The translations under genes were made by a program, and so were the position numbers. The notes under the pieces were generated by a model that searched no databases, was not told the DNA's origin, and saw only the letters and a program-made list of their open reading frames with translations. A DNA stretch of 29,227 nucleotides from an uncultured Oligoflexia bacterium. GTDB lineage: Bacteria; Bdellovibrionota; UBA1018; UBA6935. The DNA is taken from NCBI GenBank assembly GCA_964013565.1, contig CAXGWU010000036.1, positions 1-29,227 of the forward strand. The letters run 5' to 3'. The first letter of the stretch is position 1. The number at the start of each line of letters is the position of its first letter. Shown here in pieces: positions 7,091 through 20,348 of the stretch.

Positions 7091-8557
7091 ATGAATAAAT
7101 CATTTATCTCTTTTTTATTTTTCTTTGGACTCGTTTTATTTGCCCACTCATTTTCATTAGGGCTTTCAGATGATGAAGCCTATTATTGGATTCTGTCACG
7201 ACAGTGGTCTTTAGGCAGTGAGTTTCACCCCCCCATGGTCGCCTGGTGGATTAAGATTGTGACTATGGTTTTTGGGGACCTTAGTGTGCGATTGCCGGCT
7301 ATTTTAACTTCTCTGTTTCTGGTCTGGGTTACTCGATTTTATGTACTCAATGAAGGGAAACCAGATCTTTTAAAGTTTTCTCATCAATGGATTTGGATAA
7401 GTTTACCTGGGCTTTTTGTGGGATCTTGGATGATGGTTCCTGATATTCCACTCTTTTTCTTTTGGGGAATTCTTCTTTTAGTTGGAAGAAAGTGGATCGA
7501 GCGTCGCTCTCTTTTACTTTTTTTTGTTATTCTTTTTTCATTTGCCGGGATGAATCTTTCCAAATTTTCTGGAGTTTTAATTCTACCTAGCCTTATTGCA
7601 TCATGGTTTTTTCTTTCTGACGAAACTCAGAGAGTTCGTACTACTTTTTATGGAGGGTTTGCCCTTTTCTTAGGCCTTATTTTTTCTTGGTCTATTATTA
7701 TTTATTGGAATTCAGCACATGAATGGATTGCTCTCAAATATCAGTTTATGGGGAGGCATGCGGGAGAGATCTCTTGGCTGAGGTATTTGAGGTTTTGGGG
7801 GATTCAGATCATTTTAGCTGGTCCTGTTCTTTTTCTTTTTAGCTTAAAGTTACCTGTATTTTTTTTAAAAAAGAAAAACAAAGGAGCTCTTTATTTATTG
7901 TTTTTAGCTCTCCCGCCTTTAATTGTTTATTTTCTACAGCCTCTTCGAGCAGAGTTTAAGCTTCATTGGACATTAGCTGCTTGGATTCCGTTATGGATTC
8001 TTTGGATTTTGGAAAATATCTCTAATCGGAGATGGTTTCGTATTCAAAATAGTTTTTCTGCTTTAGTAATTGTTTTTGTTTTTTTATCGGCTCATCTTCC
8101 GATTCTTCCGTTTTTTCATAAAGCTTTTTCAGATCGTCCTTGGAATCCTTTGTGGGACGTAACGGGTGATTTAGAAGGGTGGAGAGAGCTTCCTTCTCAT
8201 TTAAAGTCTTTAGGATATCAATTAGATGAGTGGGGCTTTGCAGGGAATCGTTATCAGACCGCATCACAAGCTGGATTTGCTTTGAGAGAGTATGGAGTTT
8301 CAGTTTGGGTGCCTCGGAAAGAAGGTGCACGATTTGATTGGTCAATTCCTCGTATTGTTAAAGATCCTGTATTTGATTTAACTCTTTTGAAAAAGACTCT
8401 CTTTTTTGGAGATCACCGATATAATGCTCCACCTTCTTTTTTGAAGGCCAGTTGTGAATCTATTCCATCTTTAGAGGTGAATCGGGGTTCCTATCGATCT
8501 AAAACGATTCTTATCTGGAAGTGTTTACCGAAGCTTTCTTTAGATGATCATTCCTAA
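7091..8557 (+). CDS. ArnT/PMT (GT39/GT83-like) integral-membrane glycosyltransferase
   Basis: 488 aa polytopic protein; SDDEAYYWILSRQWSLGSEFHPPMVAWWIKI near the N-terminus is the typical acidic motif-containing loop of the family. Confidence 0.85.
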   Translation: MNKSFISFLFFFGLVLFAHSFSLGLSDDEAYYWILSRQWSLGSEFHPPMVAWWIKIVTMVFGDLSVRLPAILTSLFLVWVTRFYVLNEGKPDLLKFSHQWIWISLPGLFVGSWMMVPDIPLFFFWGILLLVGRKWIERRSLLLFFVILFSFAGMNLSKFSGVLILPSLIASWFFLSDETQRVRTTFYGGFALFLGLIFSWSIIIYWNSAHEWIALKYQFMGRHAGEISWLRYLRFWGIQIILAGPVLFLFSLKLPVFFLKKKNKGALYLLFLALPPLIVYFLQPLRAEFKLHWTLAAWIPLWILWILENISNRRWFRIQNSFSALVIVFVFLSAHLPILPFFHKAFSDRPWNPLWDVTGDLEGWRELPSHLKSLGYQLDEWGFAGNRYQTASQAGFALREYGVSVWVPRKEGARFDWSIPRIVKDPVFDLTLLKKTLFFGDHRYNAPPSFLKASCESIPSLEVNRGSYRSKTILIWKCLPKLSLDDHS

Positions 8558-9350
8558 TCCAAGCGGTTTGATTTCGCCCAGAAAATGTGTTTTTAATTTG
8601 AAACCACCGATCTTTAAATGAAATCACTTCAAATGTAGTGCTGTCTTTGATTCGACTAATGACAGGATAGTGAAGTCCAGGTCCAGAACGCATTTTTACA
8701 TTTGGAACTGTTGTTTTTACAAAAAAACGGTTTTCAATTTTAGGGGATATCCTTTGTTTTTTTATTTTATTTTCAGTGTTTCTTTTAGAGCTTGCTTGTG
8801 TAGATTGAATTGTTTGAATGGGAGTATTTTTTTTGACTTCAGGAGTGAGTTCTACTCGACTCATTGAAATTTGTGGTTTTTCTGATTCAACTCTAAAAAT
8901 AAGATAAGCTCCGCTGATGATGGTCAAAGCAGCAGAAATACTGAGTGATACAGTGATGATATTTTTTTGGACCCAAGTTTGAATTTGATCTGTTTTTGAT
9001 GATTGCATGATATTAATTTCTGGTAATGGTTCAGGAAAAGAAGATTCTTTAGAAACAGACTTTACTTCTTTTTGGATTTTGGGTTTATTCATCCTTTCTC
9101 TAAAAGGAGGAGGGGTAGCTTTTGAAATTGTCCTTTTAGGTTGAGCAGGCTTTATTGTCGGTTGTGTACGAATTTCATGAAATTCCATGGGTTGTTTTAA
9201 ATTTGAATTTACTTTAATTGCCGTATGATTGGATTGTTTTATACATGAAAATCCGCCACATTGAATACAGCGTGTGAAAGTCCACCCATTAGGACTTTGT
9301 TTTTTTTCTACATGCATTTCACTTGAACAGTGAGGACAAGTCACTTTCAT
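8511..9350 (-). CDS. Zinc-ribbon / single-TM / bacterial SH3 domain protein
   Basis: N-terminal CPHCSSEMHV…CIQCGG ribbon, TM IITVSLSISAALTIISGAYLIF, C-terminal VPNVKMRSGPGLHYPVISRIKDSTTFEVISFKDRWFQI…AWIRNDHL SH3-like repeat. RBS AAGGAGT before ATG. Confidence 0.75.
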   Translation of the reverse strand: MKVTCPHCSSEMHVEKKQSPNGWTFTRCIQCGGFSCIKQSNHTAIKVNSNLKQPMEFHEIRTQPTIKPAQPKRTISKATPPPFRERMNKPKIQKEVKSVSKESSFPEPLPEINIMQSSKTDQIQTWVQKNIITVSLSISAALTIISGAYLIFRVESEKPQISMSRVELTPEVKKNTPIQTIQSTQASSKRNTENKIKKQRISPKIENRFFVKTTVPNVKMRSGPGLHYPVISRIKDSTTFEVISFKDRWFQIKNTFSGRNQTAWIRNDHLKKASVNTSR

Positions 9351-9424: not shown

Positions 9425-10261
9425 TTAATTTCCGGAAGGAGTGGAGCTGATCTCTCTTTTTGGTTTAGAGGTCGAGTCAATGTTTTGAAGGGAAGGAGAG
9501 TCCCATGGAATATTTTCTACATGAGGTTCTAATACTTTTAAAACAACTCTACGATTTGTATCTAAAGCATTGATATCCCAACTTCCATCAGGATTACGTT
9601 CTTTTTTTTGTGGTCGAGTGGATCCATATCCAATTGCAAGAAGTTGAGTGGGATCAAATCCGGTGTCAATAAAACGTCTAAGTACTTGTGATGCGCGTGC
9701 TCCAGAAAGCTCCCAGTTCGATGGATAGATCCCGCTGAGAATAGGTCGACCATCGGTATGGCCTTCAACTACAATTTTATATTTTTTTTGTTCAGCGTCT
9801 TGACGTCCGAGTAGAGCGATCGTGAGCTTTTTTAAAATGTCCATTCCCTTTGGTTTGATGTTTGCACTCAAAGTATCAAAAAAGAACGTAGAATGAAAAG
9901 TGATCGTCGTTCCATTTGGATCTGAAAAAACAACAGCATCTTTTTCAATGCCTGCTTCTTGAATCACTTGTGATACAAATTTAGCAGTTTGTTCTCCCGC
10001 GGATTCATAATCTCCACCAAAGTGTTTAGCTAATCCTTCCTTTACTTTTTCATATCTAGGTGTATCAAAATTAGCTGTACTCATCATCATAATAAAAAAT
10101 GCACAAAGGAGTGTCATCAGGTCAGCGTATGAAGTTAACCAGATGGCTTCGTCCCCGTCCTCTCCTTTTCTCAAAGACTTCACTTCAGGTTTTTGGTGAG
10201 CGAGTTCTTCTTGAGTTTGTCGTGCTTTTTTTAAAAACTTTGAAATTGACAAGTTAAGCAA
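9425..10261 (-). CDS. motB: MotB/OmpA-like stator protein
   Basis: TM with conserved Asp (AIWLTSYADLMTLLCAFFIMM) and OmpA-like peptidoglycan-binding C-terminus (VVEGHTDGRP…NWELSGARASQVLR). Confidence 0.85.
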   Translation of the reverse strand: MLNLSISKFLKKARQTQEELAHQKPEVKSLRKGEDGDEAIWLTSYADLMTLLCAFFIMMMSTANFDTPRYEKVKEGLAKHFGGDYESAGEQTAKFVSQVIQEAGIEKDAVVFSDPNGTTITFHSTFFFDTLSANIKPKGMDILKKLTIALLGRQDAEQKKYKIVVEGHTDGRPILSGIYPSNWELSGARASQVLRRFIDTGFDPTQLLAIGYGSTRPQKKERNPDGSWDINALDTNRRVVLKVLEPHVENIPWDSPSLQNIDSTSKPKREISSTPSGN

Positions 10262-11036
10262 CCCTTCTCTCTATTCTTTCTTCTGGCATAAGAAAAGAAT
10301 TTAAACTTTCTTTCATTGCAAGTGGATTCACTTGTTTTTTTAATAAAATTGCACCTTCGACCATCATTCGTCGAAGAGCAATTTCTTCTTCAGTTCTTTC
10401 AGTCAAATTTTCTGCTATAGGAAGAAAAACTAAGTTAGCAATAGAGATTCCATAAAGTGTTCCAACTAGTCCAATAGACATTGCTGGCCCGATGAGTTTC
10501 TCACTCCCAGGTTTCCCTAGTTGTTGAAGAAGAGCGATCATTCCTAATGTGGTTGCAAGTAGTCCAAATGCAGGAGGAAATTTTCCAATGCTTTTGAACA
10601 TGTTTGCTTCACTCATATACTTTTTTTCAACTGTTTTTAATCTTTCTTCTAGAACTGAACGTATTTCTTGTTCTGTAAGAACTCCTGCTGCTACAAGAGA
10701 AACTCCTTCTTTTAAAAAAGGGTGACGAATACTGGGAATTGAATCTTTCAATGCGGATAGACCCAGTGAAGCTTTTTTATTAAGGTCTAGTAAGGTTTGA
10801 ACTGATTCTTGATAATTTACTTTATTTTTTCCTAAAACTCTAAAAAAGAAAATTTTTAAGAGAGAAATAATTTTTTTTATTGGAAAACTAATACTTGCTG
10901 CTGCTAGCGTTCCTCCACAAACAATGACTATCCCGTGAAAATTTAAGAAAAACATCAAGTCCATCCCGCTCTCTGCGAGAGATGCGACCATGACTCCAAC
11001 ACCTAGTAATACACCAAAAAGAGATGAAAAATTCAT
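10254..11036 (-). CDS. motA: MotA-like stator protein
   Basis: Track start at 11120 overlaps the upstream gene by 83 nt; ATG at 11036 (MNFSSLFGVLLGVGVMVASLAESG) preceded by GGAGG is a better start. Four hydrophobic segments, MotA-type GGTLAAASISFP and PAFGLLATTLGMIALLQ. Confidence 0.87.
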   Translation of the reverse strand: MNFSSLFGVLLGVGVMVASLAESGMDLMFFLNFHGIVIVCGGTLAAASISFPIKKIISLLKIFFFRVLGKNKVNYQESVQTLLDLNKKASLGLSALKDSIPSIRHPFLKEGVSLVAAGVLTEQEIRSVLEERLKTVEKKYMSEANMFKSIGKFPPAFGLLATTLGMIALLQQLGKPGSEKLIGPAMSIGLVGTLYGISIANLVFLPIAENLTERTEEEIALRRMMVEGAILLKKQVNPLAMKESLNSFLMPEERIERRVA

Positions 11037-11037
11037 T

Positions 11038-11556
11038 TTATGCAGCCTCCTCGGAAGAGCCTTTTGTAGAAAGAGCTGTTTTCCAAAGTTGATATTGTGT
11101 AATGACGTAACTGTCATCAAGTTCCTTAAGTCGATTCACCACATGGTGAGCACAACTCTCGTAAAATTTAAGTTTTCTTTCGGTCGACTTGTTTAAAAAA
11201 GCCTGAAATGAATATTTTGAAATATAGAATAAAAGACATTCAGTGGTTGCTCGTACTGTTGCAGATCGAGGTCCGTCATCAATAAGTGAGAATTCCCCAA
11301 AAAAACCACCTCGATCAATTTGACCAACGTCGTAGGTATTTCCTGAGACTCGATTTGATTTGAATACGCCTACAGAACCATCCATGACAAGATACATTCC
11401 CCAACTCATTTCACCTTCGATTACAATGTTAGATAGAGCTTCGTACTGAATGAGTTTTCCTATTCCTAAAATTTCTTGGATTTCAGTTTCTGAAAAAATT
11501 TGCAAAAGACTGACTTCCTTAAGAGATTCAACTGACGGTTGTTTTTTGTTTACCAT
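11038..11556 (-). CDS. Cyclic-nucleotide-binding domain protein
   Basis: 172 aa; …VIEGEMSWGMYLVMDGSVGVF…DRGGFFGEFSLIDDGPRSATVRATTECLLFYIS matches the cNMP-binding fold (G-E-S/L…PRSATV). Confidence 0.85.
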   Translation of the reverse strand: MVNKKQPSVESLKEVSLLQIFSETEIQEILGIGKLIQYEALSNIVIEGEMSWGMYLVMDGSVGVFKSNRVSGNTYDVGQIDRGGFFGEFSLIDDGPRSATVRATTECLLFYISKYSFQAFLNKSTERKLKFYESCAHHVVNRLKELDDSYVITQYQLWKTALSTKGSSEEAA

Positions 11557-13871
11557 CCTGCCACCTTTTTAAATTCTTCATTGTTATTTGGATTTTGGCC
11601 TTCTGGTGTTAGATCTGCAGCAAACATTTTTTCATTAGTTTCAATGAGATTGATACTGCCATCGTTAGCCATTACTTTTACTCTGTTAAGTATTTTTCTT
11701 GAAATATTTTGATACTCATCTCTTGATACGTTATCAAGACCTTCAATTTCTTCTTGAAGTTCAATGACAAGCTCTTGAGGTGATTTAGCAAAAATCGCGT
11801 TTCGTACATGTTCGGTTGAACCTTTTAAGAAACGAATTAACTCTTCATGTTTTAATCCAAGAACGACTTCAAGAAGGTGGTTATCTCTAAGGTATGCAAG
11901 GGTGTCTACAGAAACTAACTTACTTTTTACTGCGTGAGCACTATCCGGATTTTTTGTATTTAGCATGCTCATTACACTTTTCTGAGTCTGGATATTTGCT
12001 CTTTCAAGAAGACTTACAAGTACGTCGGATCCTGGAAGTGCTTCTGTATTTAACTTAGGATTGTCACTTCTTTTCCGTTTTAACGCTACGGCTACGTTAT
12101 AGATATAGTCTTTTGGAAGGTGATCAATTCTTGAAAGCTCAGTAAGAAGTCGCATTTTGGTATCTTCATCCATTTGAGCATAGATTGCTGTTCTTTTCAT
12201 TGGGTCAGTCTGAGTAAGAACAATAGCTTTTACTGTTATTGATTCATTTCGAATCAACTCAAGAACTTGAAGTTTGTCCATTTCTGCAAGAAAGTCAAAT
12301 AGACTGGTGGATCGATGACCTAAGATAAACATTTTTGCTGCAATGGTTCTGTTGTGGAGACTTTTTAAAAGTTCTAGCTTATCGTTATCATCCATTTCTA
12401 CAGGGTTTTTAGCGTAATACTCCATCAAGTCTGATAGATCAGTTTGTAAGCTCGGGTCACGAAGCATGTCGACTACAATTGCTTCTCCAAAAAGTTCAAT
12501 GTAGCAAGCTGTAACTTCCACTCCTTCTTCCGTTAATATTCGGGAAAAAACTTGTTTCGCTACTCTCGGTTGTTCACCAAAAATCTGAGTTAATTCTGAT
12601 TGTAGTCTTTCAATTTCGTAACGAATTGCAACGGAATTGATATTCTCTAAACGCGAAGGAGGTTTAGCAAATGACTCATTTGTTTCTGGGGATTGATTTT
12701 TTCCATCTTGAATAAATCTGTGAATATTTTCATTAGGTCCTCTTTTAGGTCGATAGGTAGCCAGAGCAATGAAAATAAGAAGAGAGAGTACTGAAACTGC
12801 AAAAATAAGTGAGTAGATTTCAAATTCTTGAATTTGAGATTGAACAATATCTCCATCTTCAACACGCTCTATTTTTTCATAGTGTACAAACTTCTCACTT
12901 TTATTTTCTTTATTTTCATTTGTTTGATTGAGTTGAGAATTTGAATTAAACTTTTTTGAGCTGGTAAATAAATCCTGTTTGTTTTTAAAAAATTCTGAAT
13001 TGGACTGAGATTTAGAATCTTTACTTGTAGAAGAAGCAAGTCCTCGTCGTCCAGATACATTTACTCCAGAAGCAATTCCGTTAGTAAGTCCTTGAGGAAA
13101 AGAAATGGATTTGTGATCTAGGTATACATTTTTTAGAAATCCTGTTTTTAATTTAGCCATTTCTAAAAGACCATACTGTTCCTCTGGAGAAAGACTAGAG
13201 TCTGTAAGAATAGTTCCTTCAATCCTATTGATTTTTACTGCAACATCACCATCTTGTACAAATTCACCAATAGAACCATATTGGGCTTCTTCGGGATTGA
13301 CGGGATCTACTTTAACGTCATAATCACCGAGAAGACAGTGCTGAGGACAGAAACGTCCAATTAAGTCAGATAGGGCACTGGTAAATTCTTTACTTATTCT
13401 TTCTTTAATTTCGGCTACTTTTCTGGATGATGCAATGGGTTGAGGAAAGTGTGCTATTTTTGTTTCAATTTCTACTGGATATGGCAAGTCCTCAAAGTGT
13501 TGATCTATTAATTCAAGGAGTTTCTTTTTTGAGTTCGGTCCAACTAAATCACCAATGAGTAAATTTACTTTGACTTCACTTACTTCAATTTCTGGATTTC
13601 CACCATTTTGAAGATTAATGTCAAATCCTGGTTCGAGTTCATCAGGAACAGCAACAGTGACCTGAGCTTGTGAAGAAAGGAGTTTACATTGATCGTCACA
13701 GTATTTTTTTAAAATAGGTTCTATTACTTTTTTTACTTCAGAAATAGACTTTCTTTTGAGTTGGTCTGCATTTAAAGATGCACTTTGAGCAACTTTTGAT
13801 GTTCCCAAAATTATGATGAATAAAAATGACCATTGAGTTATTTTAATGAAGAAATTCCTTTTTCTTTTCAT
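11550..13871 (-). CDS. Membrane-anchored protein with FliG-like cytoplasmic region
   Basis: 773 aa: signal peptide, about 300-residue extracytoplasmic part with duplicated C-x3-C-containing segment, polar linker, TM (IYSLIFAVSVLSLLIFIALATY), then FliG middle/C-like region (…LIRNESITVKAIVLTQTDP…; LLEVVLGLKHEELIRFLKGSTEHVRNAIFAKSPQELVIELQEEIE…). Confidence 0.75.
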   Translation of the reverse strand: MKRKRNFFIKITQWSFLFIIILGTSKVAQSASLNADQLKRKSISEVKKVIEPILKKYCDDQCKLLSSQAQVTVAVPDELEPGFDINLQNGGNPEIEVSEVKVNLLIGDLVGPNSKKKLLELIDQHFEDLPYPVEIETKIAHFPQPIASSRKVAEIKERISKEFTSALSDLIGRFCPQHCLLGDYDVKVDPVNPEEAQYGSIGEFVQDGDVAVKINRIEGTILTDSSLSPEEQYGLLEMAKLKTGFLKNVYLDHKSISFPQGLTNGIASGVNVSGRRGLASSTSKDSKSQSNSEFFKNKQDLFTSSKKFNSNSQLNQTNENKENKSEKFVHYEKIERVEDGDIVQSQIQEFEIYSLIFAVSVLSLLIFIALATYRPKRGPNENIHRFIQDGKNQSPETNESFAKPPSRLENINSVAIRYEIERLQSELTQIFGEQPRVAKQVFSRILTEEGVEVTACYIELFGEAIVVDMLRDPSLQTDLSDLMEYYAKNPVEMDDNDKLELLKSLHNRTIAAKMFILGHRSTSLFDFLAEMDKLQVLELIRNESITVKAIVLTQTDPMKRTAIYAQMDEDTKMRLLTELSRIDHLPKDYIYNVAVALKRKRSDNPKLNTEALPGSDVLVSLLERANIQTQKSVMSMLNTKNPDSAHAVKSKLVSVDTLAYLRDNHLLEVVLGLKHEELIRFLKGSTEHVRNAIFAKSPQELVIELQEEIEGLDNVSRDEYQNISRKILNRVKVMANDGSINLIETNEKMFAADLTPEGQNPNNNEEFKKVAGW

Positions 13872-13873
13872 TT

Positions 13874-14593
13874 TTAATTACTCCCTCTTAAGGTTAATTT
13901 TTTCTTTTTTGATTGTATAAATTTTTTGAGAGACTCATTATTAGGGTCAAATTCAACAGACTGTTCCCAAGATCGCATTGCTAATTCGGAGTAGCCAAGA
14001 CGTTCTAATAGCGTTCCTCTCATTTCATAAAGTTTGGGGTCAGTTGGGTAGCTTTTAATCATTTCATCTGTTTCTAGTAATCCAACTTCATATCGTTTGT
14101 TTCTATAGAGTTGCTTGATGTAGTCGATTTGAGCTAGATAGCTCGACTGACGTTTAGGTTGAGCTTCAGGAGGTGTAACAAGGCCTAGTTCATTTTCAAT
14201 ATTACTTCTCTTCCAGTCATTCTCTGGAATGCCTTCTGGAAGTTTTTCGATGATTTCGTGATCTGCAGTAGAGGGTTTTATTTTTTTATAGTCAGGGTTA
14301 ATTTGATTTTTTTGATTGGATGCAAGAGTCCTTTGTCCTACTAGAGTAGCATCCATTGGAACTACAAATTCAGTCATTTGATTTGTTTCTCTGGGAAGTT
14401 CAACTTCAACTGACTTCTGTCCTTCTTTTGATCTCAATATGATATTTGTCTCTTTTTCACCTTCGAAGAATGAATTACCAAAAGGATTTTCGATCATTGG
14501 AATGGTTTCAGTCTTTGTAGACGCACAAGAATTTCCAATAAGAATAATGAGAAGAGAAGTGATGCCTTTATTTAGATATTTCATCGATTTCAT
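13874..14593 (-). CDS. TPR-containing lipoprotein
   Basis: Lipobox-like LIGNSC after hydrophobic leader; C-terminal TPR-like helices (MRGTLLERLGYSELAMRSWEQSVEFDPNNESLKKF). Confidence 0.75.
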   Translation of the reverse strand: MKSMKYLNKGITSLLIILIGNSCASTKTETIPMIENPFGNSFFEGEKETNIILRSKEGQKSVEVELPRETNQMTEFVVPMDATLVGQRTLASNQKNQINPDYKKIKPSTADHEIIEKLPEGIPENDWKRSNIENELGLVTPPEAQPKRQSSYLAQIDYIKQLYRNKRYEVGLLETDEMIKSYPTDPKLYEMRGTLLERLGYSELAMRSWEQSVEFDPNNESLKKFIQSKKKKLTLRGSN

Positions 14594-14595
14594 CC

Positions 14596-15798
14596 TTAAA
14601 ATAGTGCGCTTACGCCCACGCCTCCTTCAATTCCAGTGAGGGTTCCTACAGCAGTTCCATCTAAAAATGCAGTTGCTGGTGGTCGGTACCCAATATTTGC
14701 ATTGACTCCCCAGTGTTTTCCAAGTCTCCATTCATATCCACCGCGAATCAATCCACCTAAAAACCCTGATGTGTAAGTTCCACCAATTCCAACAAATATA
14801 CTTCCTCGAATTTTGTTATAGTTTTCTAAATTTCCGATGAGATTCCAGGCGTGCATAAAAAGAAGAGAAAGATTAAATCCGTTCCACACATCAACAGTGG
14901 ATGTATCTGTAGAAGTGCTAAAGAAAGAGCTTGCACTTCTAAAGTAGTCTAATTCAAATCCAACTTCTTTTTTTCGATTATCGTAGCGTTCCATCATGCG
15001 GAAACCAAGACCAATAGTTCCGTTGTATTCGTTTAAATTTCTTTCAAACATATAATAGAGGATCACTCGGTACTGTAAAGTGGGTTCATAATCCGCTTGA
15101 TGTCTTGCTTGATCAACTTGTGAGTAATCAACTCCACGTCTAAAAGCAGCTGCACGAGAAGTTTCTGAATTATATGTTCTAGACCATATAATTGTTTGGT
15201 TTTCTGCATCAGTGATATAGAGAGAGAGTAAGAGTCCTGTGGGCAAATAGGCAAACGCAATATCTAAAAAATGTTTCACAGAGTGTTTTTTTGCAAGTCG
15301 AGCGAGTTGCTCAGGGTGACTTTCTGGAGACGAAATAACAACGTTATTTCCACTCAGACGAGCTGTTCTTGATCGACATGGAATACATTGAATCATTCTG
15401 GTTTGTGAGTTTTTTAGAATTCGCTCAGTTGTGAGTAACTCTAAATGACTCTTAAAGGATTCTGGAACATTTTCACTGGTGACGACATTTCGAACGGATA
15501 GATCAGTTAAGCCCCTTACATCGCCACTTTTGACATCATACTCAAAATCAGAAAGTACATCTTCAAGGACCTGGTAAAAACTTCTTTTCTTTTCGTCATC
15601 TTGTTCTTCGTTAGAAGAAATGAGCTTAGACTTCGTAGTTGGATCAGGAGTGATTTCTTTGTTCTCTGGTGATTCTTCTGCAAAAGTAGAGGTACTTGTT
15701 GTGAACAAGACGAGGAGAATTATCTTTCCCAAAAACTGAAAGGGGAGAGTCACTCGCTTTTTAATGAGTTTATCTGTTTTGTGGGTTTTTATATTCAT
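14596..15798 (-). CDS. Outer-membrane beta-barrel candidate, first gene of the motor-like operon
   Basis: Likely start ATG 15798 (track ORF begins 15843): signal peptide …FLGKIILLVLFTTSTSTFAEES; C-terminal alternating/glycine-rich strands ending in …GVGVSALF. Confidence 0.6.
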   Translation of the reverse strand: MNIKTHKTDKLIKKRVTLPFQFLGKIILLVLFTTSTSTFAEESPENKEITPDPTTKSKLISSNEEQDDEKKRSFYQVLEDVLSDFEYDVKSGDVRGLTDLSVRNVVTSENVPESFKSHLELLTTERILKNSQTRMIQCIPCRSRTARLSGNNVVISSPESHPEQLARLAKKHSVKHFLDIAFAYLPTGLLLSLYITDAENQTIIWSRTYNSETSRAAAFRRGVDYSQVDQARHQADYEPTLQYRVILYYMFERNLNEYNGTIGLGFRMMERYDNRKKEVGFELDYFRSASSFFSTSTDTSTVDVWNGFNLSLLFMHAWNLIGNLENYNKIRGSIFVGIGGTYTSGFLGGLIRGGYEWRLGKHWGVNANIGYRPPATAFLDGTAVGTLTGIEGGVGVSALF

Positions 15799-15830
15799 AG
15801 TGGTATAAACGATTCCTTCCTCTAGATGAC

Positions 15831-15857
15831 TTTTCGGACACATCCCCTGTCTTTTTA
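15831..15857 (-). promoter_or_regulatory. Sigma-28 (FliA)-like promoter candidate for the OMP-lipoprotein-FliG-like-cNMP-MotAB operon
   Basis: Minus strand TAAAAAGA-N11-TCCGAAAA compared with TAAAGTTT-N11-GCCGATAA, ending 32 nt upstream of ATG 15798. Confidence 0.45.
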
Positions 15858-15922
15858 ATTATTTTTCGTTTTTTTTCATTTTTTGTTTCATAAGGTGAAA
15901 AATTTGCCGATAGGTAGGTGAA

Positions 15923-16753
15923 ATGTTCCACAAAAGAAGGAAAATAAATTTAAATAAGATAAAGAAGAGTGTTTTTTTGACGTTTTTTTCGGTTCTTCAT
16001 GTTCAGTGTTCGTCGACACCGGTGACTCCTATTGAGCCATTACCGGAAGTTCCAGAGTATCTTCATGCTCCTCATCCTGTTGGTTTTGATTTTGCAGATT
16101 TAGAGCTTATTTTTCATAAGGCTTCTTCTCCAACACCTGAAAAATTGGCAGGTTGTAATGAAAAGTTTGAAAGTCTAAAAGTAGTCACTCAAAAAAATGA
16201 AGACATATATAGAGTCACCAGAGAGTTCATTAAAAATGAACCAGTTGAGTTTCATTGGTGTTTTTATCATAAGATCTTCACTCTTCATGAGACATTAAAG
16301 AATACCCCTACTTGGCGTGGACGACAGAAAGAAGTTATTGAAGCTTTTGAGTTTTTAGTTCCAGTCGCTCGAGGGTTTCGTAAAGAATTTCATGATCCAC
16401 GCTATCTTCGATGGGCGTCTCGATATTATATTCAGTTAAGTAAAACTGTTTTTTATAAAAACTTAGTTCTTTCTCCACAAGCAGTATCAGATCAGTATGG
16501 TGAAATTTCTACTCCTTATGCTTTATGGAAAAAGTCAGAACCTCAAAAAGAGGCTTCTCAGGCAGAAATTAAAAATGTAGAAATACAAAGCAACACAAAT
16601 TTAAAAGAACCAAAAGAGGAACTTCGTGTTCCTGCTGGATTAGAAGATCAAATTGATGCTGAGTTAGAAACAGAGTTAAGTAGTGATCCTTTTTTAAATG
16701 AAGCCCTTCCAGAGTTAGATTCCAACAAATCAGCTGAGGTTATTGAAAAATAA
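15923..16753 (+). CDS. Lipoprotein of unknown function
   Basis: 276 aa; hydrophobic leader with lipobox-like VLHVQC; mixed helical body, acidic C-terminus. Divergent from the motor-like operon. Confidence 0.65.
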   Translation: MFHKRRKINLNKIKKSVFLTFFSVLHVQCSSTPVTPIEPLPEVPEYLHAPHPVGFDFADLELIFHKASSPTPEKLAGCNEKFESLKVVTQKNEDIYRVTREFIKNEPVEFHWCFYHKIFTLHETLKNTPTWRGRQKEVIEAFEFLVPVARGFRKEFHDPRYLRWASRYYIQLSKTVFYKNLVLSPQAVSDQYGEISTPYALWKKSEPQKEASQAEIKNVEIQSNTNLKEPKEELRVPAGLEDQIDAELETELSSDPFLNEALPELDSNKSAEVIEK

Positions 16754-16921: not shown

Positions 16922-17887
16922 TTGTATTTATTGATGAATAAGAGTCTTTTTGACGTAAAAATGTGGGTTAAAGACATGCAGCAAGGGAAGCGCATAGCCC
17001 TTGCTCGAATCATTACGAAGATTGAGAACCGAGATGTCGAAGTTCCTGAGTTGATGAAAGAGATTTTTCCTCTGACAGGAAAAGCGGAGGTTCTTGGTGT
17101 GACCGGTCCTCCTGGAGCAGGAAAGTCTACCCTTGTTGATCAGTTGATCTATGCGAGTCGTGCCGAAGGTAAGAAAGTAGCGGTTATTGCTGTTGATCCC
17201 TCAAGTCCATTTTCTGGGGGTGCAATTCTTGGAGATCGCATTCGAATGCAAAGGCATTATGGTGATACAGGAGTTTATATTCGAAGTTTAGGAACTCGTG
17301 GAAAACATGGGGGACTATCGCATTCGACAAAAGAAGCAGTTATGGCTTTGGATGCAGCGGGATTTGATCGAATTATTGTAGAAACTGCAGGTGTTGGTCA
17401 GACCGAATTGGCAATTTTGAAATTAGCACAAACTGTTTTGGTGGTCCTAGTGCCAGAGAGCGGGGATTCAATTCAGGTCATGAAAGCTGGATTAATGGAG
17501 ATTGCAGATCTTTTTGTAGTGAATAAATCAGATCGACCTGCTGCGGATCAATTAGTAAGAGAGCTTGTCGTAATGGTGGGTATGAACAGTGACCATGAAG
17601 CAAAATGGTCTGTACCTGTATTGAAGACAGAAGCGGTTAAGTCTGTAGGAATTGATGCGGTAATGAAGAGTCTTTCAGAGCATCAATCCTATTTAGATGA
17701 GTCCCATTTGAGAAATCAAAAGAGAACTTCTTTTTTGTCTGAGGAAATCGAAGATATCTTGTTAGAAAAATTTACTCAAAAAATTAAAGAATCTCTTTCT
17801 TCAAAAAAAGGAAAAGAAATTCTTTCAGATTTAACATCAGGAAAAATCACTCCTTATGATGCGAGTGGTCTAATTTTCAAAATCTAA
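16922..17887 (+). CDS. meaB: MeaB/ArgK-like G3E GTPase (methylmalonyl-CoA mutase associated chaperone family)
   Basis: GVTGPPGAGKSTLVDQLI P-loop, VIAVDPSSPFSGGAILGDRIRM, IIVETAGVGQTE. Start could be TTG 16922 or ATG 16934. Confidence 0.9.
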   Translation: MYLLMNKSLFDVKMWVKDMQQGKRIALARIITKIENRDVEVPELMKEIFPLTGKAEVLGVTGPPGAGKSTLVDQLIYASRAEGKKVAVIAVDPSSPFSGGAILGDRIRMQRHYGDTGVYIRSLGTRGKHGGLSHSTKEAVMALDAAGFDRIIVETAGVGQTELAILKLAQTVLVVLVPESGDSIQVMKAGLMEIADLFVVNKSDRPAADQLVRELVVMVGMNSDHEAKWSVPVLKTEAVKSVGIDAVMKSLSEHQSYLDESHLRNQKRTSFLSEEIEDILLEKFTQKIKESLSSKKGKEILSDLTSGKITPYDASGLIFKI

Positions 17888-18283: not shown

Positions 18284-19117
18284 ATGGGTATGCGTGTAAA
18301 TACAAATGTTCAGTCGATTGCGGCTCAACGGACGTTGGAAAAAAATAATATTTCTCAGCAAAAATCAATTGAGAAACTAGCAGCAGGTACTCGAATTGTT
18401 CGAGCGGCCGACGATGCAGCTGGTTTAGCAATTTCTGAGAGAATGAGAGCTAACATTGGTTCGATTCGTCAGAACGCAAGAAACGCTCAAGACGGAATCT
18501 CAATGATTCAGGTTGCTGAAGGATCTTTTAATGAAATTAATAACGTTTTAGTGCGTTTTAGAGAGCTTGCTGTTCAAAGTGCCTCTGACACTATTGGTGA
18601 TAAAGAGCGATCTTACATTGATAAAGAGGTTCAGCAATTGAAACAAGAGGTTGATCGAATCGCAAATGGTACTGAGTTTAATGGAAAAAATCTATTAAAT
18701 GGAAGTGGTGAGGTTCTACAGATTCAAGTAGGTCCGATGAATGATCCAGAGCTCGATCGATTTTATTTGGATACGTCTAAGACGAATTCAACGACTGATG
18801 CTTTAGGTCTTGCAGATTTCAATACGCTTTCAAGAGAAGCTTCCCAAGAGTCTCTTGCAGCAATTGATAACGCAATTGATATGGTTGTAGAAAATCGTTC
18901 TGATCTAGGTGCTCAACAAAATAGACTTGAGTCTACCATCAGAAACTTAAAAATCTATGATGAGAACTTATCAGCTGCGAGAAGTCGAATCTATGATGTC
19001 GATATTGCAAGTGAGACTGCTGAATTGACTCGTTCAAATATCTTAACTTCTGCAGGTGTGTCGGTTCTCAGTCAAGCAAATCAAAATAGTATGAGAGCGT
19101 TACAGCTTCTAGGATAA
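18284..19117 (+). CDS. fliC: Flagellin 1
   Basis: 277 aa, MGMRVNTNVQSIAAQRTLEKNN N-terminus and ANQNSMRALQLL C-terminus typical of short flagellins; RBS TTAGGAGGAA. Confidence 0.95.
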   Translation: MGMRVNTNVQSIAAQRTLEKNNISQQKSIEKLAAGTRIVRAADDAAGLAISERMRANIGSIRQNARNAQDGISMIQVAEGSFNEINNVLVRFRELAVQSASDTIGDKERSYIDKEVQQLKQEVDRIANGTEFNGKNLLNGSGEVLQIQVGPMNDPELDRFYLDTSKTNSTTDALGLADFNTLSREASQESLAAIDNAIDMVVENRSDLGAQQNRLESTIRNLKIYDENLSAARSRIYDVDIASETAELTRSNILTSAGVSVLSQANQNSMRALQLLG

Positions 19118-19209: not shown

Positions 19210-19236
19210 TAAAGTATTTACGCAGTGCTCCGATAT
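19210..19236 (+). promoter_or_regulatory. Sigma-28-like promoter for flagellin 2
   Basis: TAAAGTAT-N11-TCCGATAT, near-consensus to TAAAGTTT-N11-GCCGATAA. Confidence 0.75.
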
Positions 19237-19514: not shown

Positions 19515-20348
19515 ATGGGCTTGAGAGTAAATACAAATATTGCATCGTTAGCAGCACAAAGAGTTGTGCGAAATCGAAGTTTAGAGCAAGAAAAATCTTA
19601 TCAGAGATTGGCAACTGGGCGAAGAATTGTCAATGCAGGTGACGACGCAGCCGGTTTATCTATTAGTGAAAATCTGCGTGCACAGATTCGTTCAATGCAT
19701 CAGGCAGAAAGAAATGCGAATGACGGAATTTCTTTTGTTCAGGTTGCAGAAGGTGGCCTTAATGAAATAGCAAATATGCTCGTTCGTTTAAGAGAGCTTT
19801 CTATTCAGGCAGCTTCAGATACTGTCGGTGACCGTGAACGAGGTTTTATTCAAACGGAAGTAGAAAGCATTGTTGGTGAGATCGATCGCATCGCAAATGT
19901 AACCTCATTTAATGGAACAAATTTGTTAAATGGAGAAAGCGACAAAGGTGATCTTGATATTCAAGTGGGAATTCGAAATAAGGAACCCGACCGAGTCAAT
20001 TTATCAATAGACGAGAATGATGTGACTACGTCTGCTCTAGGAATTGATGGGATTGAGGCTTCAAGTATTGGCTCTGCAAGAGACTCTTTGGATTCAATTG
20101 ATAATGCAATTGATCGAGTGAGTGGATCAAGAGCTCGATTAGGTGCTGCACAAAATAAACTCAGATCAAGAGTGAATAATCTTTCTATTAATAGACAGAA
20201 TTTAGAAGCAGCAAGATCAAGAGTGATTGATACTGATATTGCAGATGAAAGTGCGAAATTGGTCACTCATAATATTCTAAAAAGTACTGGAATTTCAGTT
20301 TTGGCTCAGGCAAACGTCGCGCCAATGAAAGCTTTGGAATTAATCTAA
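19515..20348 (+). CDS. fliC: Flagellin 2
   Basis: 277 aa, MGLRVNTNIASLAAQRVVRNRS…; C-terminal SILAQ/NVAPMKALELI-type end; paralog of flagellin 1. Confidence 0.95.
   Translation: MGLRVNTNIASLAAQRVVRNRSLEQEKSYQRLATGRRIVNAGDDAAGLSISENLRAQIRSMHQAERNANDGISFVQVAEGGLNEIANMLVRLRELSIQAASDTVGDRERGFIQTEVESIVGEIDRIANVTSFNGTNLLNGESDKGDLDIQVGIRNKEPDRVNLSIDENDVTTSALGIDGIEASSIGSARDSLDSIDNAIDRVSGSRARLGAAQNKLRSRVNNLSINRQNLEAARSRVIDTDIADESAKLVTHNILKSTGISVLAQANVAPMKALELI

What the first reader, a model, noticed from the sequence alone, without database searches (positions are those of the whole stretch)
9425..15798. Operon combining a MotA/MotB-type stator with a membrane-tethered FliG-like protein, a cNMP-binding protein and envelope proteins
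Six minus-strand genes are packed with 2-bp gaps or few-base overlaps: outer-membrane candidate, TPR lipoprotein, FliG-like membrane protein, cyclic-nucleotide-binding protein, MotA, MotB. In known flagella, FliG is a soluble rotor protein held by the separate FliF ring. Here a FliG-like part sits on its own single-pass envelope protein next to its own stator pair. The set could form a dedicated ion-driven motor (a second torque source, gliding/surface machine, or envelope-spanning force transducer) or a flagellar stator-docking/regulation module. The function is inference; the domain assignments are pattern-based.
Basis: partly seen in the sequence, partly recalled or inferred. Interest (0 to 1): 0.85.

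Follow-up and report, generated by a model that had tools for sequence, protein, structure and literature searches.

The report
Membrane-anchored FliG rotor with own stator
A marine Bdellovibrio-like bacterium, and about 80 related uncultured species, carry a conserved operon that pairs a flagellar-type MotA/MotB ion motor with a full FliG "rotor" protein built into the inner membrane, plus outer-membrane partners, which looks like a stripped-down flagellar motor without a flagellum and has not been described in any paper I could find.

Summary
Six tightly packed minus-strand genes (9425-15843) encode six proteins.

- An outer-membrane protein: 8-stranded barrel plus a TolB-N/LpoB-like periplasmic domain.
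- A TPR lipoprotein.
- A 773-aa membrane protein with FliG_M and FliG_C above Pfam thresholds.
- A stand-alone cyclic-nucleotide-binding protein.
- MotA.
- MotB, with plug and OmpA domains.

New findings:

- The cytoplasmic half of the 773-aa protein aligns to full-length FliG.
- Its periplasmic half is predicted as two tandem ring-building-motif-like domains. Their best structural match is the FliF MS-ring, so the protein resembles a natural FliF-FliG fusion that lacks the export-gate-housing domain.
- The gene set OMP, TPR, FliG-like, MotA, MotB is kept in about 80 Bdellovibrionota species. It persists, in a different order, in a relative only 25-33% identical.
- The host is flagellated (flagellins, FliD and FliS lie 2.5 kb away). 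A related Oligoflexales contig also carries a canonical FliG.

Best reading, as inference: a dedicated ion-driven rotor-stator module separate from the flagellar basal body, tuned by a cyclic nucleotide; its output is unknown. The main rival is a flagellar accessory or stator-docking ring. No publication describing it was found. NCBI calls the protein "hypothetical". Rating: new variant of a known kind, high interest.

The parts
14596..15843 (-). Outer-membrane protein (415-aa ORF; probable start at 15798 gives 400 aa). It has a signal peptide, a disordered stretch, a periplasmic alpha/beta domain (model residues 74-210, numbered from the 400-aa form) and a C-terminal 8-stranded beta-barrel (240-399) ending in ...SALF.
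   Evidence: AF2 model has mean pLDDT 77. Foldseek matches: TolB 1.5e-6, LpoB C-domain 1.7e-4, OmpW 9e-5, OmpA TM domain 1.5e-4, NspA and OmpX. No Pfam or NCBIfam family. 334 homologues, all 'hypothetical'.
13874..14593 (-). Lipoprotein of 239 aa with about two C-terminal TPR repeats (residues about 157-234). The lipobox Cys is conserved (family consensus LLGLSGC).
   Evidence: Sub-threshold Pfam TPR hits. Designed TPR proteins match at 3.5e-8. The Cys is invariant in 73 family members.
11550..13871 (-). 773-aa FliF/FliG-fusion-like membrane protein (whole gene).
13452..13799 (-). Periplasmic RBM-like domain 1 (aa 25-140, alpha-beta-beta-alpha-beta) with invariant C58xxxC62.
   Evidence: AF2 secondary structure with pLDDT about 90. 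Foldseek to FliF MS-ring 6scn_A, E 1.2e-3, prob 0.99, 276 columns. Invariant Cys residues.
13104..13436 (-). Periplasmic RBM-like domain 2 (aa 146-256) with invariant C175xxxC179.
12750..12818 (-). Transmembrane helix (aa 352-374). It is preceded by the invariant periplasmic motif EKIERVExGD and followed by basic residues (RPKR), which gives N-out/C-in topology.
   Evidence: Read from the sequence. AF2 helix 340-372. Invariant columns E332, E335-E338, G340, D341.
12282..12653 (-). Cytoplasmic helical region (aa 407-530) in the position of FliG_N plus helix NM.
   Evidence: Foldseek aligns 317 columns to the 321-residue full-length A. aeolicus FliG 3hjl and to Salmonella FliG in the C-ring. The profile matches 3hjl from chain residue 63. 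No significant sequence match to FliG_N or to FliF_C.
12060..12269 (-). FliG middle domain (aa 535-604). The EHPQR motif is degenerate, reading E-S-x-T...R.
   Evidence: Pfam FliG_M 9.1e-8. Alignment to T. maritima FliG.
11646..11966 (-). FliG C-terminal (torque) domain (aa 636-742). The torque helix reads KSP[KR][DE]L..EL[E]EE.
   Evidence: Pfam FliG_C 2e-14. 1qc7 match: TM-score 0.82 normalised by target length, rmsd 1.8. Residue mapping to E. coli FliG.
11038..11556 (-). Stand-alone cyclic-nucleotide-binding protein (172 aa) with no DNA-binding domain. Its start overlaps the FliG-like gene's stop.
   Evidence: Pfam 7.2e-16. PKA regulatory-subunit CNB domains match at about 1e-19. The phosphate-binding cassette FGE..L....PRSAT is conserved in 65 members.
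10254..11036 (-). MotA (260 aa from the ATG at 11036; the ORF as listed runs to a TTG at 11120).
   Evidence: Pfam 7.5e-21. Solved flagellar MotA/PomA structures match at 3e-36 to 9e-26. Equivalents of P173 and P222 are invariant in 71 sequences.
9425..10261 (-). MotB with plug, TM segment carrying the invariant Asp (E. coli D32 equivalent) and an OmpA-type peptidoglycan-binding domain.
   Evidence: Pfam MotB_plug 1.2e-13 and OmpA 1.1e-16. D32 equivalent invariant in 68 sequences.
8511..9350 (-). Possible accessory protein (279 aa): cytoplasmic Zn-ribbon, TM segment, periplasmic SH3_3 domain. It lies 74 bp downstream of motB.
   Evidence: Pfam SH3_3 1.1e-7, Zn_ribbon_4 6.8e-4. Found in the same position in at least 34 loci, but only about 24% identical.
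15923..16753 (+). Divergently transcribed lipoprotein (276 aa) of unknown fold, conserved next to the operon.
   Evidence: Present in the same position and orientation in most loci. Lipobox consensus LLVGC. No Pfam, NCBIfam or PDB hit.

Best explanation
The cluster encodes a self-contained rotor-stator module derived from flagellar motor parts but separate from the flagellar basal body.

Proposed mechanism:
1. MotA5B2-type units sit in the inner membrane. MotB's OmpA domain fixes them to peptidoglycan, and they conduct H+ or Na+ past the conserved MotB Asp.
2. The rotating MotA cytoplasmic domain pushes on the acidic torque helix of the FliG_C domain of the 773-aa protein.
3. That protein is itself embedded in the inner membrane. 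I infer that it oligomerises into a ring through its two periplasmic RBM-like domains, so it combines the roles of FliF and FliG in one chain.
4. It has no RBM3/beta-collar. The cluster has no export gate, rod, hook, FliM or FliN.
5. The movement or force is passed through the periplasmic face to the TPR lipoprotein and to the outer-membrane barrel, which has a TolB-N/LpoB-like domain.
6. The small cyclic-nucleotide-binding protein is translationally coupled to the FliG-like gene. I infer that it gates or biases the motor in response to cAMP or cGMP.

Shown here: the domain identities, the predicted topology, and the conservation of catalytic and torque residues and of the gene set.

Inferred: ring formation, the MotA-FliG contact, coupling to the outer membrane, regulation, and the physiological output (surface movement, prey contact or envelope dynamics).
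For: - FliG_M and FliG_C score above Pfam cut-offs. The family profile hits T. maritima FliG MC at 1.6e-12. The model aligns over 317 columns to full-length FliG.
- The periplasmic half is predicted with pLDDT above 90 as two alpha-beta-beta-alpha-beta domains. The first non-FliG structural hits are FliF MS-ring chains (6scn_A at 1.2e-3, then 8z5v, 6sd1, 7cg7) and YscD.
- Charge distribution around the TM (acidic before, RPKR after) places the FliG part in the cytoplasm, where MotA's loop lies.
- Stator hallmarks are intact: MotB Asp and MotA Pro-173/Pro-222 equivalents are invariant, and the plug and OmpA domains are present.
- Torque-helix equivalents of E. coli K264, D288 and D289 are conserved.
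- The gene set OMP, TPR, FliG-like, (cNMP), MotA, MotB is kept in about 80 species-level genomes at 40-65% identity.
- All five core genes recur in another order in L084 at only 25-33% identity. A third lineage has TPR, FliG-like, MotA, MotB (L087).
- The host has a flagellum of its own (flagellins, FliD, FliS). L086 carries a canonical 331-aa FliG 1.5 kb from a family member.
- The FliG-like part is only 18% identical to that canonical FliG, which is itself 35% identical to E. coli FliG.
- The FliM-binding HPQ residues are lost.
- A sigma-28 promoter motif is found upstream of 10 of 53 flagellin genes but upstream of only 1 of 66 operons.
Against: - No experiment and no complex prediction links MotA to this FliG domain.
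- The R281 equivalent on the torque helix is acidic, and the MotA R90/E98 equivalents are not in register. The canonical charge pairing is therefore altered.
- Charge covariation between the two proteins was uninformative.
- Similarity to FliF is structural only and weak (E 1e-3). No sequence signal was found, and the RBM fold is common.
- The cluster lies 2.5 kb from flagellin/fliD/fliS here, and flagellins lie within 10 kb in 29 of the related loci. This fits a flagellar role equally well.
- Oligoflexales relatives lack adjacent motAB.
- I could not check whole genomes for a second, canonical motAB or fliF/fliG set in the window's own lineage.
Confidence: 0.45

Rival explanations
1. Flagellar accessory module. 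The membrane FliG-like protein, TPR lipoprotein and OM protein form a periplasmic and inner-membrane scaffold around the polar, probably sheathed, flagellar motor. This scaffold would recruit, park or regulate an extra MotAB stator set, by analogy with PflA/PflB, FlgP/FlgQ, FlgT/MotXY or the spirochaete collar. The cNMP protein would act as a clutch or brake input.
For: - The operon lies 2.5 kb from two flagellins, FliD and FliS. Flagellins lie within 10 kb in 29 of the related loci.
- The MotA/MotB pair is of the flagellar type: best matches are solved flagellar stators at 3e-36, with plug and OmpA domains.
- TPR proteins and TolB-N/LpoB-like lipoprotein folds are typical of flagellar disks and cages (from established knowledge; fold evidence).
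- Oligoflexales relatives occur without their own motAB, so they may use flagellar stators.
Against: - No known flagellar scaffold contains a FliG domain.
- Unrelated neighbours (MeaB, PMT_2) are as syntenic as the flagellins, so proximity may only reflect genome collinearity.
- The sigma-28 motif is not enriched upstream of the operon (1 of 66, against 10 of 53 for flagellins).
- The operon keeps its own MotAB even after gene-order shuffling at 25-33% identity.
Confidence: 0.3
2. Decoy or regulatory rotor. The FliG-like protein does not turn anything. It binds MotAB units, or the flagellar stators, to sequester, activate or report on them. It would be a cyclic-nucleotide-controlled stator sink or a force/ion-flux sensor that signals to the envelope.
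For: - The torque helix is conserved but modified.
- The CNB protein is more tightly linked to the FliG-like gene than MotAB is. Their reading frames overlap, and the pairing is kept in an Oligoflexales genome that has no adjacent motAB.
Against: - Two well-conserved periplasmic domains, a lipoprotein and an OM barrel are more than a cytoplasmic decoy would need.
- The CNB gene is absent from 12 loci that keep everything else.
Confidence: 0.12
3. It is the flagellar rotor itself. In this clade a FliF-FliG fusion would have replaced separate FliF and FliG, and the adjacent MotAB would be the flagellar stator.
For: - Engineered FliF-FliG fusions work in Salmonella and Vibrio (PMC11481574; references cited in PMC4768692).
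- Topology and domain order match FliF followed by FliG.
Against: - There is no RBM3/beta-collar to hold the export gate and rod.
- The HPQ residues of the FliM-binding motif are lost.
- Identity to any canonical FliG is only 17-20%.
- TIGR00207 scores 61.6 against a cut-off of 226.7.
- A canonical FliG coexists with a family member in L086.
- No fliE/fliH/fliI/fliM genes are nearby.
Confidence: 0.05

Closest known systems
Bacterial flagellar rotor-stator pair (FliF MS-ring, FliG, MotA5B2)
   Same: - FliG_M and FliG_C domains, with a region in the place of FliG_N.
- A flagellar-type MotA/MotB with plug, ion-binding Asp, conserved prolines and an OmpA domain.
- RBM-like periplasmic domains on a membrane protein with FliF-like topology.
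- Acidic pair on the torque helix.
   Different: - FliG is covalently part of the membrane protein.
- There are only two RBM-like domains and no RBM3/beta-collar.
- No export apparatus, rod, hook, FliM or FliN is encoded in the cluster.
- The EHPQR motif is degenerate, and the R281 equivalent has reversed charge.
- The partners are an OM barrel, a TPR lipoprotein and a cNMP-binding protein.
Chlamydiaceae FliF-FliG fusion protein (Bergeron 2016, PMC4768692)
   Same: A natural single chain with a signal or TM segment, two RBM-like periplasmic domains, a TM segment and a cytoplasmic FliG-like region, in an organism where it is not part of a working flagellum.
   Different: - The chlamydial protein is about 330 aa and carries only a FliG_M-like region, with no torque domain.
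- It has no adjacent MotAB. It is thought to interact with the injectisome.
- No sequence relationship to it was tested here.
Other 5:2 ion-driven motors with envelope-spanning partners (TolQR-TolA-TolB-Pal, ExbBD-TonB, GldLM/T9SS, AglRQS-Glt)
   Same: - Logic: an inner-membrane ion motor is coupled through periplasmic proteins to outer-membrane components.
- The OM protein's periplasmic domain has the TolB-N/LpoB fold.
- TPR lipoproteins and OM barrels are also parts of the Glt gliding complex (from established knowledge).
   Different: - The stator belongs to the flagellar (plug plus OmpA, MotA/PomA-like) clade, not the Tol/Exb/Agl clade.
- The motor's direct partner is a FliG domain, not a TonB/TolA/GldM-type periplasmic arm.
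Flagellar periplasmic scaffolds (Vibrio FlgT/FlgO/FlgP and MotXY; Campylobacter PflA/PflB/FlgP/FlgQ)
   Same: Envelope proteins with TPR repeats, small lipoprotein alpha/beta folds and small barrels, encoded with or near stator genes.
   Different: - None of them contains FliG domains or RBM-like rings fused to a rotor protein.
- No sequence similarity was detected.
YcgR/PilZ-type second-messenger brakes acting on FliG/MotA
   Same: A small nucleotide-binding protein genetically tied to rotor and stator.
   Different: - The ligand domain is a CAP/PKA-type CNB domain, not PilZ.
- Binding to the rotor is only inferred.

Membership tests
FliG (flagellar motor switch protein) | FliG middle and C-terminal domains detectable by the curated models | tested here: met
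   PF14841 scores 32.7 bits (cut-off 25) and PF01706 scores 54.2 bits (cut-off 23.3). All 40 aligned members match both. PDB FliG chains match at 1.6e-12.
FliG (flagellar motor switch protein) | Equivalog-level match to FliG (TIGR00207), i.e. the same function as the flagellar switch protein | tested here: not met
   61.6 bits against a cut-off of 226.7, covering only profile positions 108-327. Identity to canonical FliG is 17-20%.
FliG (flagellar motor switch protein) | EHPQR motif of FliG_M that binds FliM | tested here: not met
   Aligned to T. maritima EHPQ...R, the family has E-S-(L/I)-T...R. E543, T546 and R581 are invariant and S544 is at least 90% conserved, but H, P and Q are replaced.
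FliG (flagellar motor switch protein) | Conserved charged residues of the torque helix (E. coli K264, R281, D288, D289, R297) | tested here: inconclusive
   K264 maps to K (67 of 77). D288 and D289 map to E/D and E (76 and 71 of 77). R281 maps to D/E (76 of 77), preceded by K/R. R297 maps to S, followed by R (67 of 77).
FliG (flagellar motor switch protein) | Soluble protein held on the FliF C-terminal tail through FliG_N | tested here: not met
   The FliG-like region is fused, after a TM helix and a roughly 30-residue linker, to a periplasmic domain.
FliF / SctJ (MS-ring, PF01514) | Sequence match to the YscJ/FliF family | tested here: not met
   No PF01514 hit appears for the window protein, and it is not among the 25 most-matched families of the 40 members at E up to 5. 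hmmsearch and hhalign against E. coli FliF are not significant.
FliF / SctJ (MS-ring, PF01514) | TM, then tandem RBM (alpha-beta-beta-alpha-beta) domains, then TM | tested here: met
   Based on the AF2 prediction only. Two such domains are predicted with pLDDT above 90. FliF chains are the best non-FliG structural matches (6scn_A at 1.2e-3, prob 0.99).
FliF / SctJ (MS-ring, PF01514) | RBM3 with beta-collar forming the S-ring that houses the export gate and rod | tested here: not met
   After the second RBM-like domain the model has only a disordered, low-complexity stretch (residues 262-337) before the TM.
FliF / SctJ (MS-ring, PF01514) | Assembly into a 20- to 34-mer ring | not testable with these tools
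   No multimer prediction was available.
Flagellar-type MotA/MotB stator | MotA with 4 TM segments and the conserved prolines (E. coli P173, P222); MotB with the ion-binding Asp (D32), plug and OmpA-type PG-binding domain | tested here: met
   P173 and P222 equivalents are present in 71 of 71 sequences, and D32 in 68 of 68. MotB_plug 1.2e-13 and OmpA 1.1e-16. Solved MotA/PomA match at 3e-36 to 9e-26.
Flagellar-type MotA/MotB stator | Equivalog-level match to a named flagellar stator (MotA, PomA, MotP; MotB, MotS, MotD) | tested here: not met
   The best MotA-side match is MotP at 157 bits (cut-off 394). The best MotB-side match is MotD at 128 bits (cut-off 283).
Flagellar-type MotA/MotB stator | Charged pair of the MotA cytoplasmic loop (E. 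coli R90, E98) in register | tested here: inconclusive
   The family motif is [ED]LN[KR][KR]A.xG....x[ED]. Basic and acidic residues are conserved but shifted by one position relative to Clostridium MotA and E. coli MotA.
Tol-Pal / Ton systems | TolQ/ExbB-type A subunit, TolR/ExbD B subunit without plug, and a TolA/TonB arm | tested here: not met
   The stator is MotA/MotB-like with plug and OmpA. No TolA or TonB gene lies in the cluster. Only the OM protein's N-domain shares the TolB-N fold.
CRP/FNR transcription factors | CNB domain followed by an HTH DNA-binding domain | tested here: not met
   The protein has 172 aa and a CNB domain only. CRP scores 42.6 bits against a cut-off of 266, covering profile positions 13-130. 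The best PDB matches are PKA regulatory-subunit CNB domains.

The most novel reading that the evidence does not exclude
Bdellovibrionota possess a flagellum-independent, ion-driven rotary machine. It would consist of a membrane-embedded ring of a FliF-FliG-like single-chain rotor turned by its own MotAB stators, coupled to an outer-membrane barrel and lipoproteins, and gated by cAMP or cGMP. It would be the first case of the FliG-MotA torque interface used outside a flagellum. It is also a candidate for the still unidentified motor of surface movement or prey contact in this phylum, or a relic of how stators and rotor were first joined.
Probability: 0.35. Interest if true: 0.9.

Novelty: new variant of a known kind. 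Interest (0 to 1): 0.8.

Why it matters
The FliG-MotA interface is the defining torque-generating contact of the bacterial flagellum. To my knowledge it is known only there, and six literature searches found no counter-example.

- A conserved operon that keeps this contact but discards the export apparatus, rod, hook and switch would show that the flagellar motor core is a portable module. Here the rotor is also wired directly into the membrane and to outer-membrane partners.
- It would give a minimal natural system for studying torque generation: one rotor protein plus MotAB.
- It bears on how stators and rotor were recruited during flagellar evolution.
- A 2026 review states that the gliding motor of Bdellovibrio is unidentified (PMC13104615). 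This cluster is a testable candidate for envelope-associated movement in relatives, although it was not seen in cultured B. bacteriovorus here.
- Even under the flagellar-accessory reading, it would be the first FliG-domain scaffold around a motor.

Tried and rejected
- Sequence-level proof of FliF ancestry failed. Pfam at E up to 5 on 40 members, a family HMM against E. coli FliF, and hhalign of the full, periplasmic and middle sub-alignments against E. coli FliF, FliG and their concatenation all gave nothing for the periplasmic or FliG_N-like parts. The FliF likeness rests on the predicted fold only.
- Charge covariation between the MotA loop and the FliG-like torque helix across 68 paired loci gave low mutual information, confounded by phylogeny.
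- MAFFT alignment of this MotA to E. coli MotA misaligns the loop. I used the HMMER alignments to solved TGI4-type MotA instead.
- Promoter and terminator scans of the operon gave no more hits than shuffled sequence.
- A GCCGATA at 15906-15912 near the divergent gene is not above chance and lacks a correctly spaced -35 element.
- The conserved C-terminal ...KKVAGW looked like a docking peptide for the CNB protein, since all 34 loci with GW have the cNMP gene. However, GW-stop overlaps the ATG of the cNMP gene, so overlap constraint explains it.
- The 578-aa protein after the second MotAB pair in L060 is not a detectable relative of the FliG-like protein.
- The exact window protein is not indexed in the contig look-up.
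- The rival idea that the C-terminal half is an MgtE_N-type sensor domain was rejected. Those hits are weaker (best 3e-4) than the FliG_M and FliG_C hits in all 40 members.

Full report
**1. What is in the sequence**

Between 9425 and 15843 the minus strand carries six ORFs with no room for internal promoters. In transcription order they are:
- a 415-aa protein (14596-15843);
- a 239-aa protein (13874-14593, 2-bp gap);
- a 773-aa protein (11550-13871, 2-bp gap);
- a 172-aa protein (11038-11556, 7-nt overlap);
- MotA (ORF 10254-11120, with a probable ATG at 11036, one base after the preceding stop);
- MotB (9425-10261, 8-nt overlap).

A simple scan found no terminator-like or promoter-like sites inside the block beyond what shuffled sequence gives. 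The end coordinate 15798 corresponds to the second ATG of the first gene, which is probably the true start. A 100%-identical 400-aa protein from Tara Oceans data begins there.

**2. Domain assignments**

Pfam confirms the pattern-based calls:
- FliG_M, 9.1e-8, residues 535-604 of the 773-aa protein, above the curated cut-off;
- FliG_C, 2e-14, residues 636-742, above the curated cut-off;
- cNMP_binding, 7.2e-16;
- MotA_ExbB, 7.5e-21;
- MotB_plug, 1.2e-13, and OmpA, 1.1e-16.

NCBIfam places MotA and MotB nearest to MotP/MotA/PomA and MotD/MotS, but far below the equivalog cut-offs. It scores the 773-aa protein at 61.6 bits against a FliG cut-off of 226.7. These are relatives of the flagellar proteins, not orthologues.

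The 172-aa protein is a lone CNB domain. It is most like PKA regulatory-subunit domains (about 1e-19). Its phosphate-binding cassette FGE..L....PRSAT is conserved across 65 homologues, and it has no DNA-binding domain.

The 239-aa protein has a conserved lipobox cysteine and about two C-terminal TPR repeats (3.5e-8 to designed TPR proteins).

**3. The 773-aa protein looks like FliF and FliG in one chain**

Sequence evidence. A profile of 40 homologues hits T. maritima FliG MC at 1.6e-12 and full-length A. aeolicus FliG from residue 63 onward.

The AF2 model built on that alignment has mean pLDDT 76.5, and its folded parts are above 90. It shows, in order:
- an N-terminal hydrophobic helix, which is a signal peptide or first TM segment;
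- two tandem alpha-beta-beta-alpha-beta domains (residues 25-140 and 146-256);
- a disordered, low-complexity stretch (262-337);
- a TM helix (about 352-374);
- a 30-residue linker;
- an all-helical region (407-754).

Foldseek against the PDB aligns 317 columns to the 321-residue full-length FliG 3hjl (2e-7) and to Salmonella FliG in CW and CCW C-rings. The first non-FliG hits are FliF MS-ring chains (6scn_A at 1.2e-3, prob 0.99, 276 columns; then 8z5v_A, 6sd1_A, 7cg7_A) and the injectisome ring protein YscD.

Topology. Acidic residues precede the TM helix and RPKR follows it, so the FliG part is cytoplasmic. That is where the MotA loop lies.

The family-specific features are:
- an invariant CxxxC at the same position in each RBM-like domain (C58/C62 and C175/C179);
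- an invariant juxtamembrane motif EKIERVExGD.

Limits of the FliF comparison. I found no sequence-level signal for FliF. "FliF-like" therefore rests on the predicted fold and on topology. The model has no equivalent of RBM3 and its beta-collar, the part of FliF that forms the S-ring and houses the export gate and rod.

**4. Are the functional residues kept?**

Stator:
- The equivalent of E. coli MotB D32 is invariant in 68 sequences.
- The equivalents of MotA P173 and P222 are invariant in 71 sequences.

Torque helix, mapped onto E. coli FliG:
- K264 is K in 67 of 77 sequences.
- D288 and D289 are E/D and E in 76 and 71 of 77.
- R281 is D or E in 76 of 77, with K/R just before it.
- R297 is S, followed by R in 67 of 77.

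MotA loop, aligned to solved Clostridium MotA. The family motif is [ED]LN[KR][KR]A.xG....x[ED]. Conserved basic and acidic residues are present but sit one position out of register with R90 and E98. This could mean a private, re-tuned interface that keeps this pair apart from the flagellar pair. I could not show that, because covariation analysis was uninformative.

FliM-binding motif. EHPQR is reduced to E-S-x-T...R. This fits the absence of fliM and fliN from the cluster.

**5. The outer-membrane protein**

This protein has no Pfam family. Its 334 homologues are all annotated as hypothetical.

The AF2 model (pLDDT 77) has a signal peptide, a disordered stretch, an alpha/beta domain and an 8-stranded barrel ending in an aromatic residue. 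Foldseek matches:
- the alpha/beta domain to the TolB N-terminal domain (1.5e-6) and the LpoB C-domain (1.7e-4);
- the barrel to OmpW, OmpA, OmpX, NspA and PagL (1e-4 to 1e-3).

**6. Conservation and distribution**

Source. The window's protein is identical to MBN22473.1, a "hypothetical protein" of a Tara Oceans MAG labelled Bdellovibrionaceae/Pseudobdellovibrionaceae bacterium.

Close family. A word-indexed search found 169 full-length homologues at 46-56% identity, all from Bdellovibrionota MAGs where a name is given. A scan of one genome per GTDB species returned 80 loci. Nearly all are MAGs labelled Bacteriovoracaceae, Oligoflexia, Bdellovibrionia or Bdellovibrionales (a few carry other labels). 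Two genomes not flagged as MAGs, FG-1 and FG-2, are also included.

Gene order, from tblastn with the window's proteins. The order is: divergent lipoprotein, then OMP, TPR, FliG-like, cNMP, MotA, MotB, and often the Zn-ribbon/SH3 protein. This holds in essentially every locus long enough to show it.
- The cNMP gene is missing in 12 loci.
- L006 lacks motAB after the FliG-like gene.
- Median identities are MotA 65%, OMP 54%, cNMP 52%, MotB 49%, FliG-like 48%, TPR 40%.

Wider family, from an exhaustive HMM search of 1.84 billion representatives. It gave 105 hits below 1e-30.
- A second tier of full-length relatives is labelled Oligoflexales. Some of these stand alone (L086). One is followed only by a cNMP gene.
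- In L084 a 986-aa relative sits in the order OMP, TPR, MotA, MotB, FliG-like, with the five proteins only 25-33% identical to the window's.
- In a third lineage (L087) a 670-aa membrane FliG-like protein with a different periplasmic part is flanked by a TPR protein and MotA/MotB.

Retention of the same set through sequence divergence and gene-order change is the strongest evidence that these proteins work together.

**7. Relationship to the flagellum**

The host is flagellated. The window holds two flagellins (18284-19117 and 19515-20348), FliD and FliS. A sigma-28-type motif lies before the second flagellin.

Points that fit a flagellar link:
- Flagellins lie within 10 kb of the cluster in 29 of the related loci. 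Unrelated neighbours (MeaB, PMT_2) are equally syntenic, so this may be plain collinearity.

Points that fit a separate machine:
- In L086 a canonical 331-aa FliG, 35% identical to E. coli FliG, lies 1.5 kb from a family member. It is only 18% identical to the FliG-like region. The FliG-like protein is therefore an additional, very divergent paralogue and not the flagellar FliG.
- The sigma-28 motif occurs upstream of 10 of 53 flagellin genes, 1 of 66 operons and 0.5% of random windows. This is weak evidence that the operon is not a late flagellar operon.

I could not scan whole genomes, so whether the window's clade has a separate canonical fliF/fliG/motAB set remains untested.

**8. Most likely mechanism**

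I favour, at about 0.45, a self-contained rotor-stator module. Peptidoglycan-anchored MotA5B2 units use ion flow to push on the FliG_C domains of a membrane-embedded oligomer of the 773-aa protein. The periplasmic RBM-like face of that oligomer contacts the TPR lipoprotein and the OM protein's TolB-N-like domain. The CNB protein is translationally coupled to the rotor gene, and I infer that it modulates the motor.

Shown: domain identity, predicted topology, residue conservation and gene linkage.

Inferred: ring assembly, the contact itself, transmission to the outer membrane, the ligand and the physiological output.

Rivals:
- A flagellar accessory scaffold or extra-stator dock, about 0.3.
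- A non-rotating decoy or sensor, about 0.12.
- The flagellar rotor itself, about 0.05. This is contradicted by the missing RBM3, the lost FliM motif and the coexisting canonical FliG.

**9. Comparison with what is known**

The parts belong to the flagellar rotor and stator superfamilies. Several defining features of FliG proper and of FliF proper were tested and not met. I therefore do not file the protein as FliG or FliF.

The nearest precedent is the Chlamydiaceae FliF-FliG fusion described by Bergeron (PMC4768692). That protein is about 330 aa, has only a FliG_M-like region and has no stator.

Engineered FliF-FliG fusions are functional in flagella (PMC11481574), so a single-chain rotor is physically plausible.

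The recent survey of MotAB diversity separates flagellar stators from "generic" Tol/Exb/Agl-type ones. In the passages I read, it did not report flagellar-type stators serving non-flagellar rotors (PMC12505986).

A 2026 review states that the Bdellovibrio gliding motor is unidentified (PMC13104615).

Six full-text searches found no description of a membrane-tethered FliG with its own MotAB. The library does not cover most subscription-journal papers, so this is absence of evidence only.

**10. Verdict**

The feature is real and strongly conserved. It is probably undescribed. Its parts are known, but its architecture is new. I rate it a new variant of a known kind, with interest 0.8.

Noticed in passing
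window 18284-19117, 19515-20348, 21810-23198, 23208-23609; motif at 19210-19235: Two flagellin genes, fliD and fliS lie 2.5 kb from the cluster. A sigma-28-type TAAAG-N15-CCGATA motif sits before the second flagellin. The host is therefore flagellated.
   Followed up: partly
window 23613-24041, 24038-25165, 25386-27179: Three genes follow fliS: a 142-aa ORF with no family (in the position where fliT lies in E. coli), a 375-aa multi-TPR protein and a 597-aa protein with a weak GT9 (heptosyltransferase-like) match. They may be related to flagellin modification.
   Followed up: no
L060 3668-8076: One related genome has a second, unrelated module 4 kb upstream of the cluster: TPR protein, MotA (24% identical to the cluster's MotA), MotB with plug and OmpA, then 578-aa and 199-aa proteins with no family. 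The 578-aa protein is not detectably FliG-like.
   Followed up: partly
L087 4603-8984: Another lineage has a TPR protein, a 670-aa membrane FliG-like protein (FliG_M 4e-15, FliG_C 9e-19, with a different periplasmic part), MotA and MotB. A MoxR/DUF58/DUF4381/VWA set follows directly. Membrane-tethered FliG plus MotAB is therefore wider than the window's family.
   Followed up: partly
L066 10001-11680 and L067 10001-11743 (Bdellovibrionota bacterium FG-1): FG-1, which is not labelled as a MAG, has two copies of the rotor gene that are 94% identical, on two contigs. Both contigs break at the same residue. The flanking OMP and TPR genes differ between the copies. This suggests a recent duplication or two strains.
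   Followed up: partly
window 11550-11560 (junction of the FliG-like and cNMP genes): The conserved C-terminal ...[KR][KR]V[AS]GW of the rotor protein ends in GW-stop, which overlaps the ATG of the cNMP gene. All 34 loci with the GW ending have the cNMP gene, and the 12 loci without the cNMP gene lack GW. The motif is probably constrained by the gene overlap.
   Followed up: yes
window 13686-13700 and 13335-13349 (aa 58-62 and 175-179 of the 773-aa protein): An invariant CxxxC sits at the helix-to-strand junction of each RBM-like domain. It is kept even in distant relatives (tier-2 alignment, P0389). To my knowledge it is not a feature of FliF or SctJ. It may form a disulfide or a metal site.
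   Followed up: no
L086 12911-13906: In an Oligoflexales MAG a canonical fliG lies alone, with no fliF or fliH beside it, 1.5 kb from the membrane FliG-like gene and on the opposite strand.
   Followed up: partly
window 8511-9350: The protein after motB combines an MJ0042-type zinc ribbon, a Pro-rich linker, a TM segment and a periplasmic SH3_3 domain. It is positionally conserved but only about 24% identical between genomes.
   Followed up: partly
window 16922-17887: A MeaB-type GTPase (TIGR00750, 322 bits) has no methylmalonyl-CoA mutase gene next to it. It is syntenic with the cluster in many genomes.
   Followed up: no
window 4532-5458: A XerC/XerD-type tyrosine recombinase lies among housekeeping genes (TrmFO/GidA-like, EamA, VTT, M14 peptidase, PMT_2). 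The neighbours are the same in L001, so it is a chromosomal gene and not a mobile element.
   Followed up: partly
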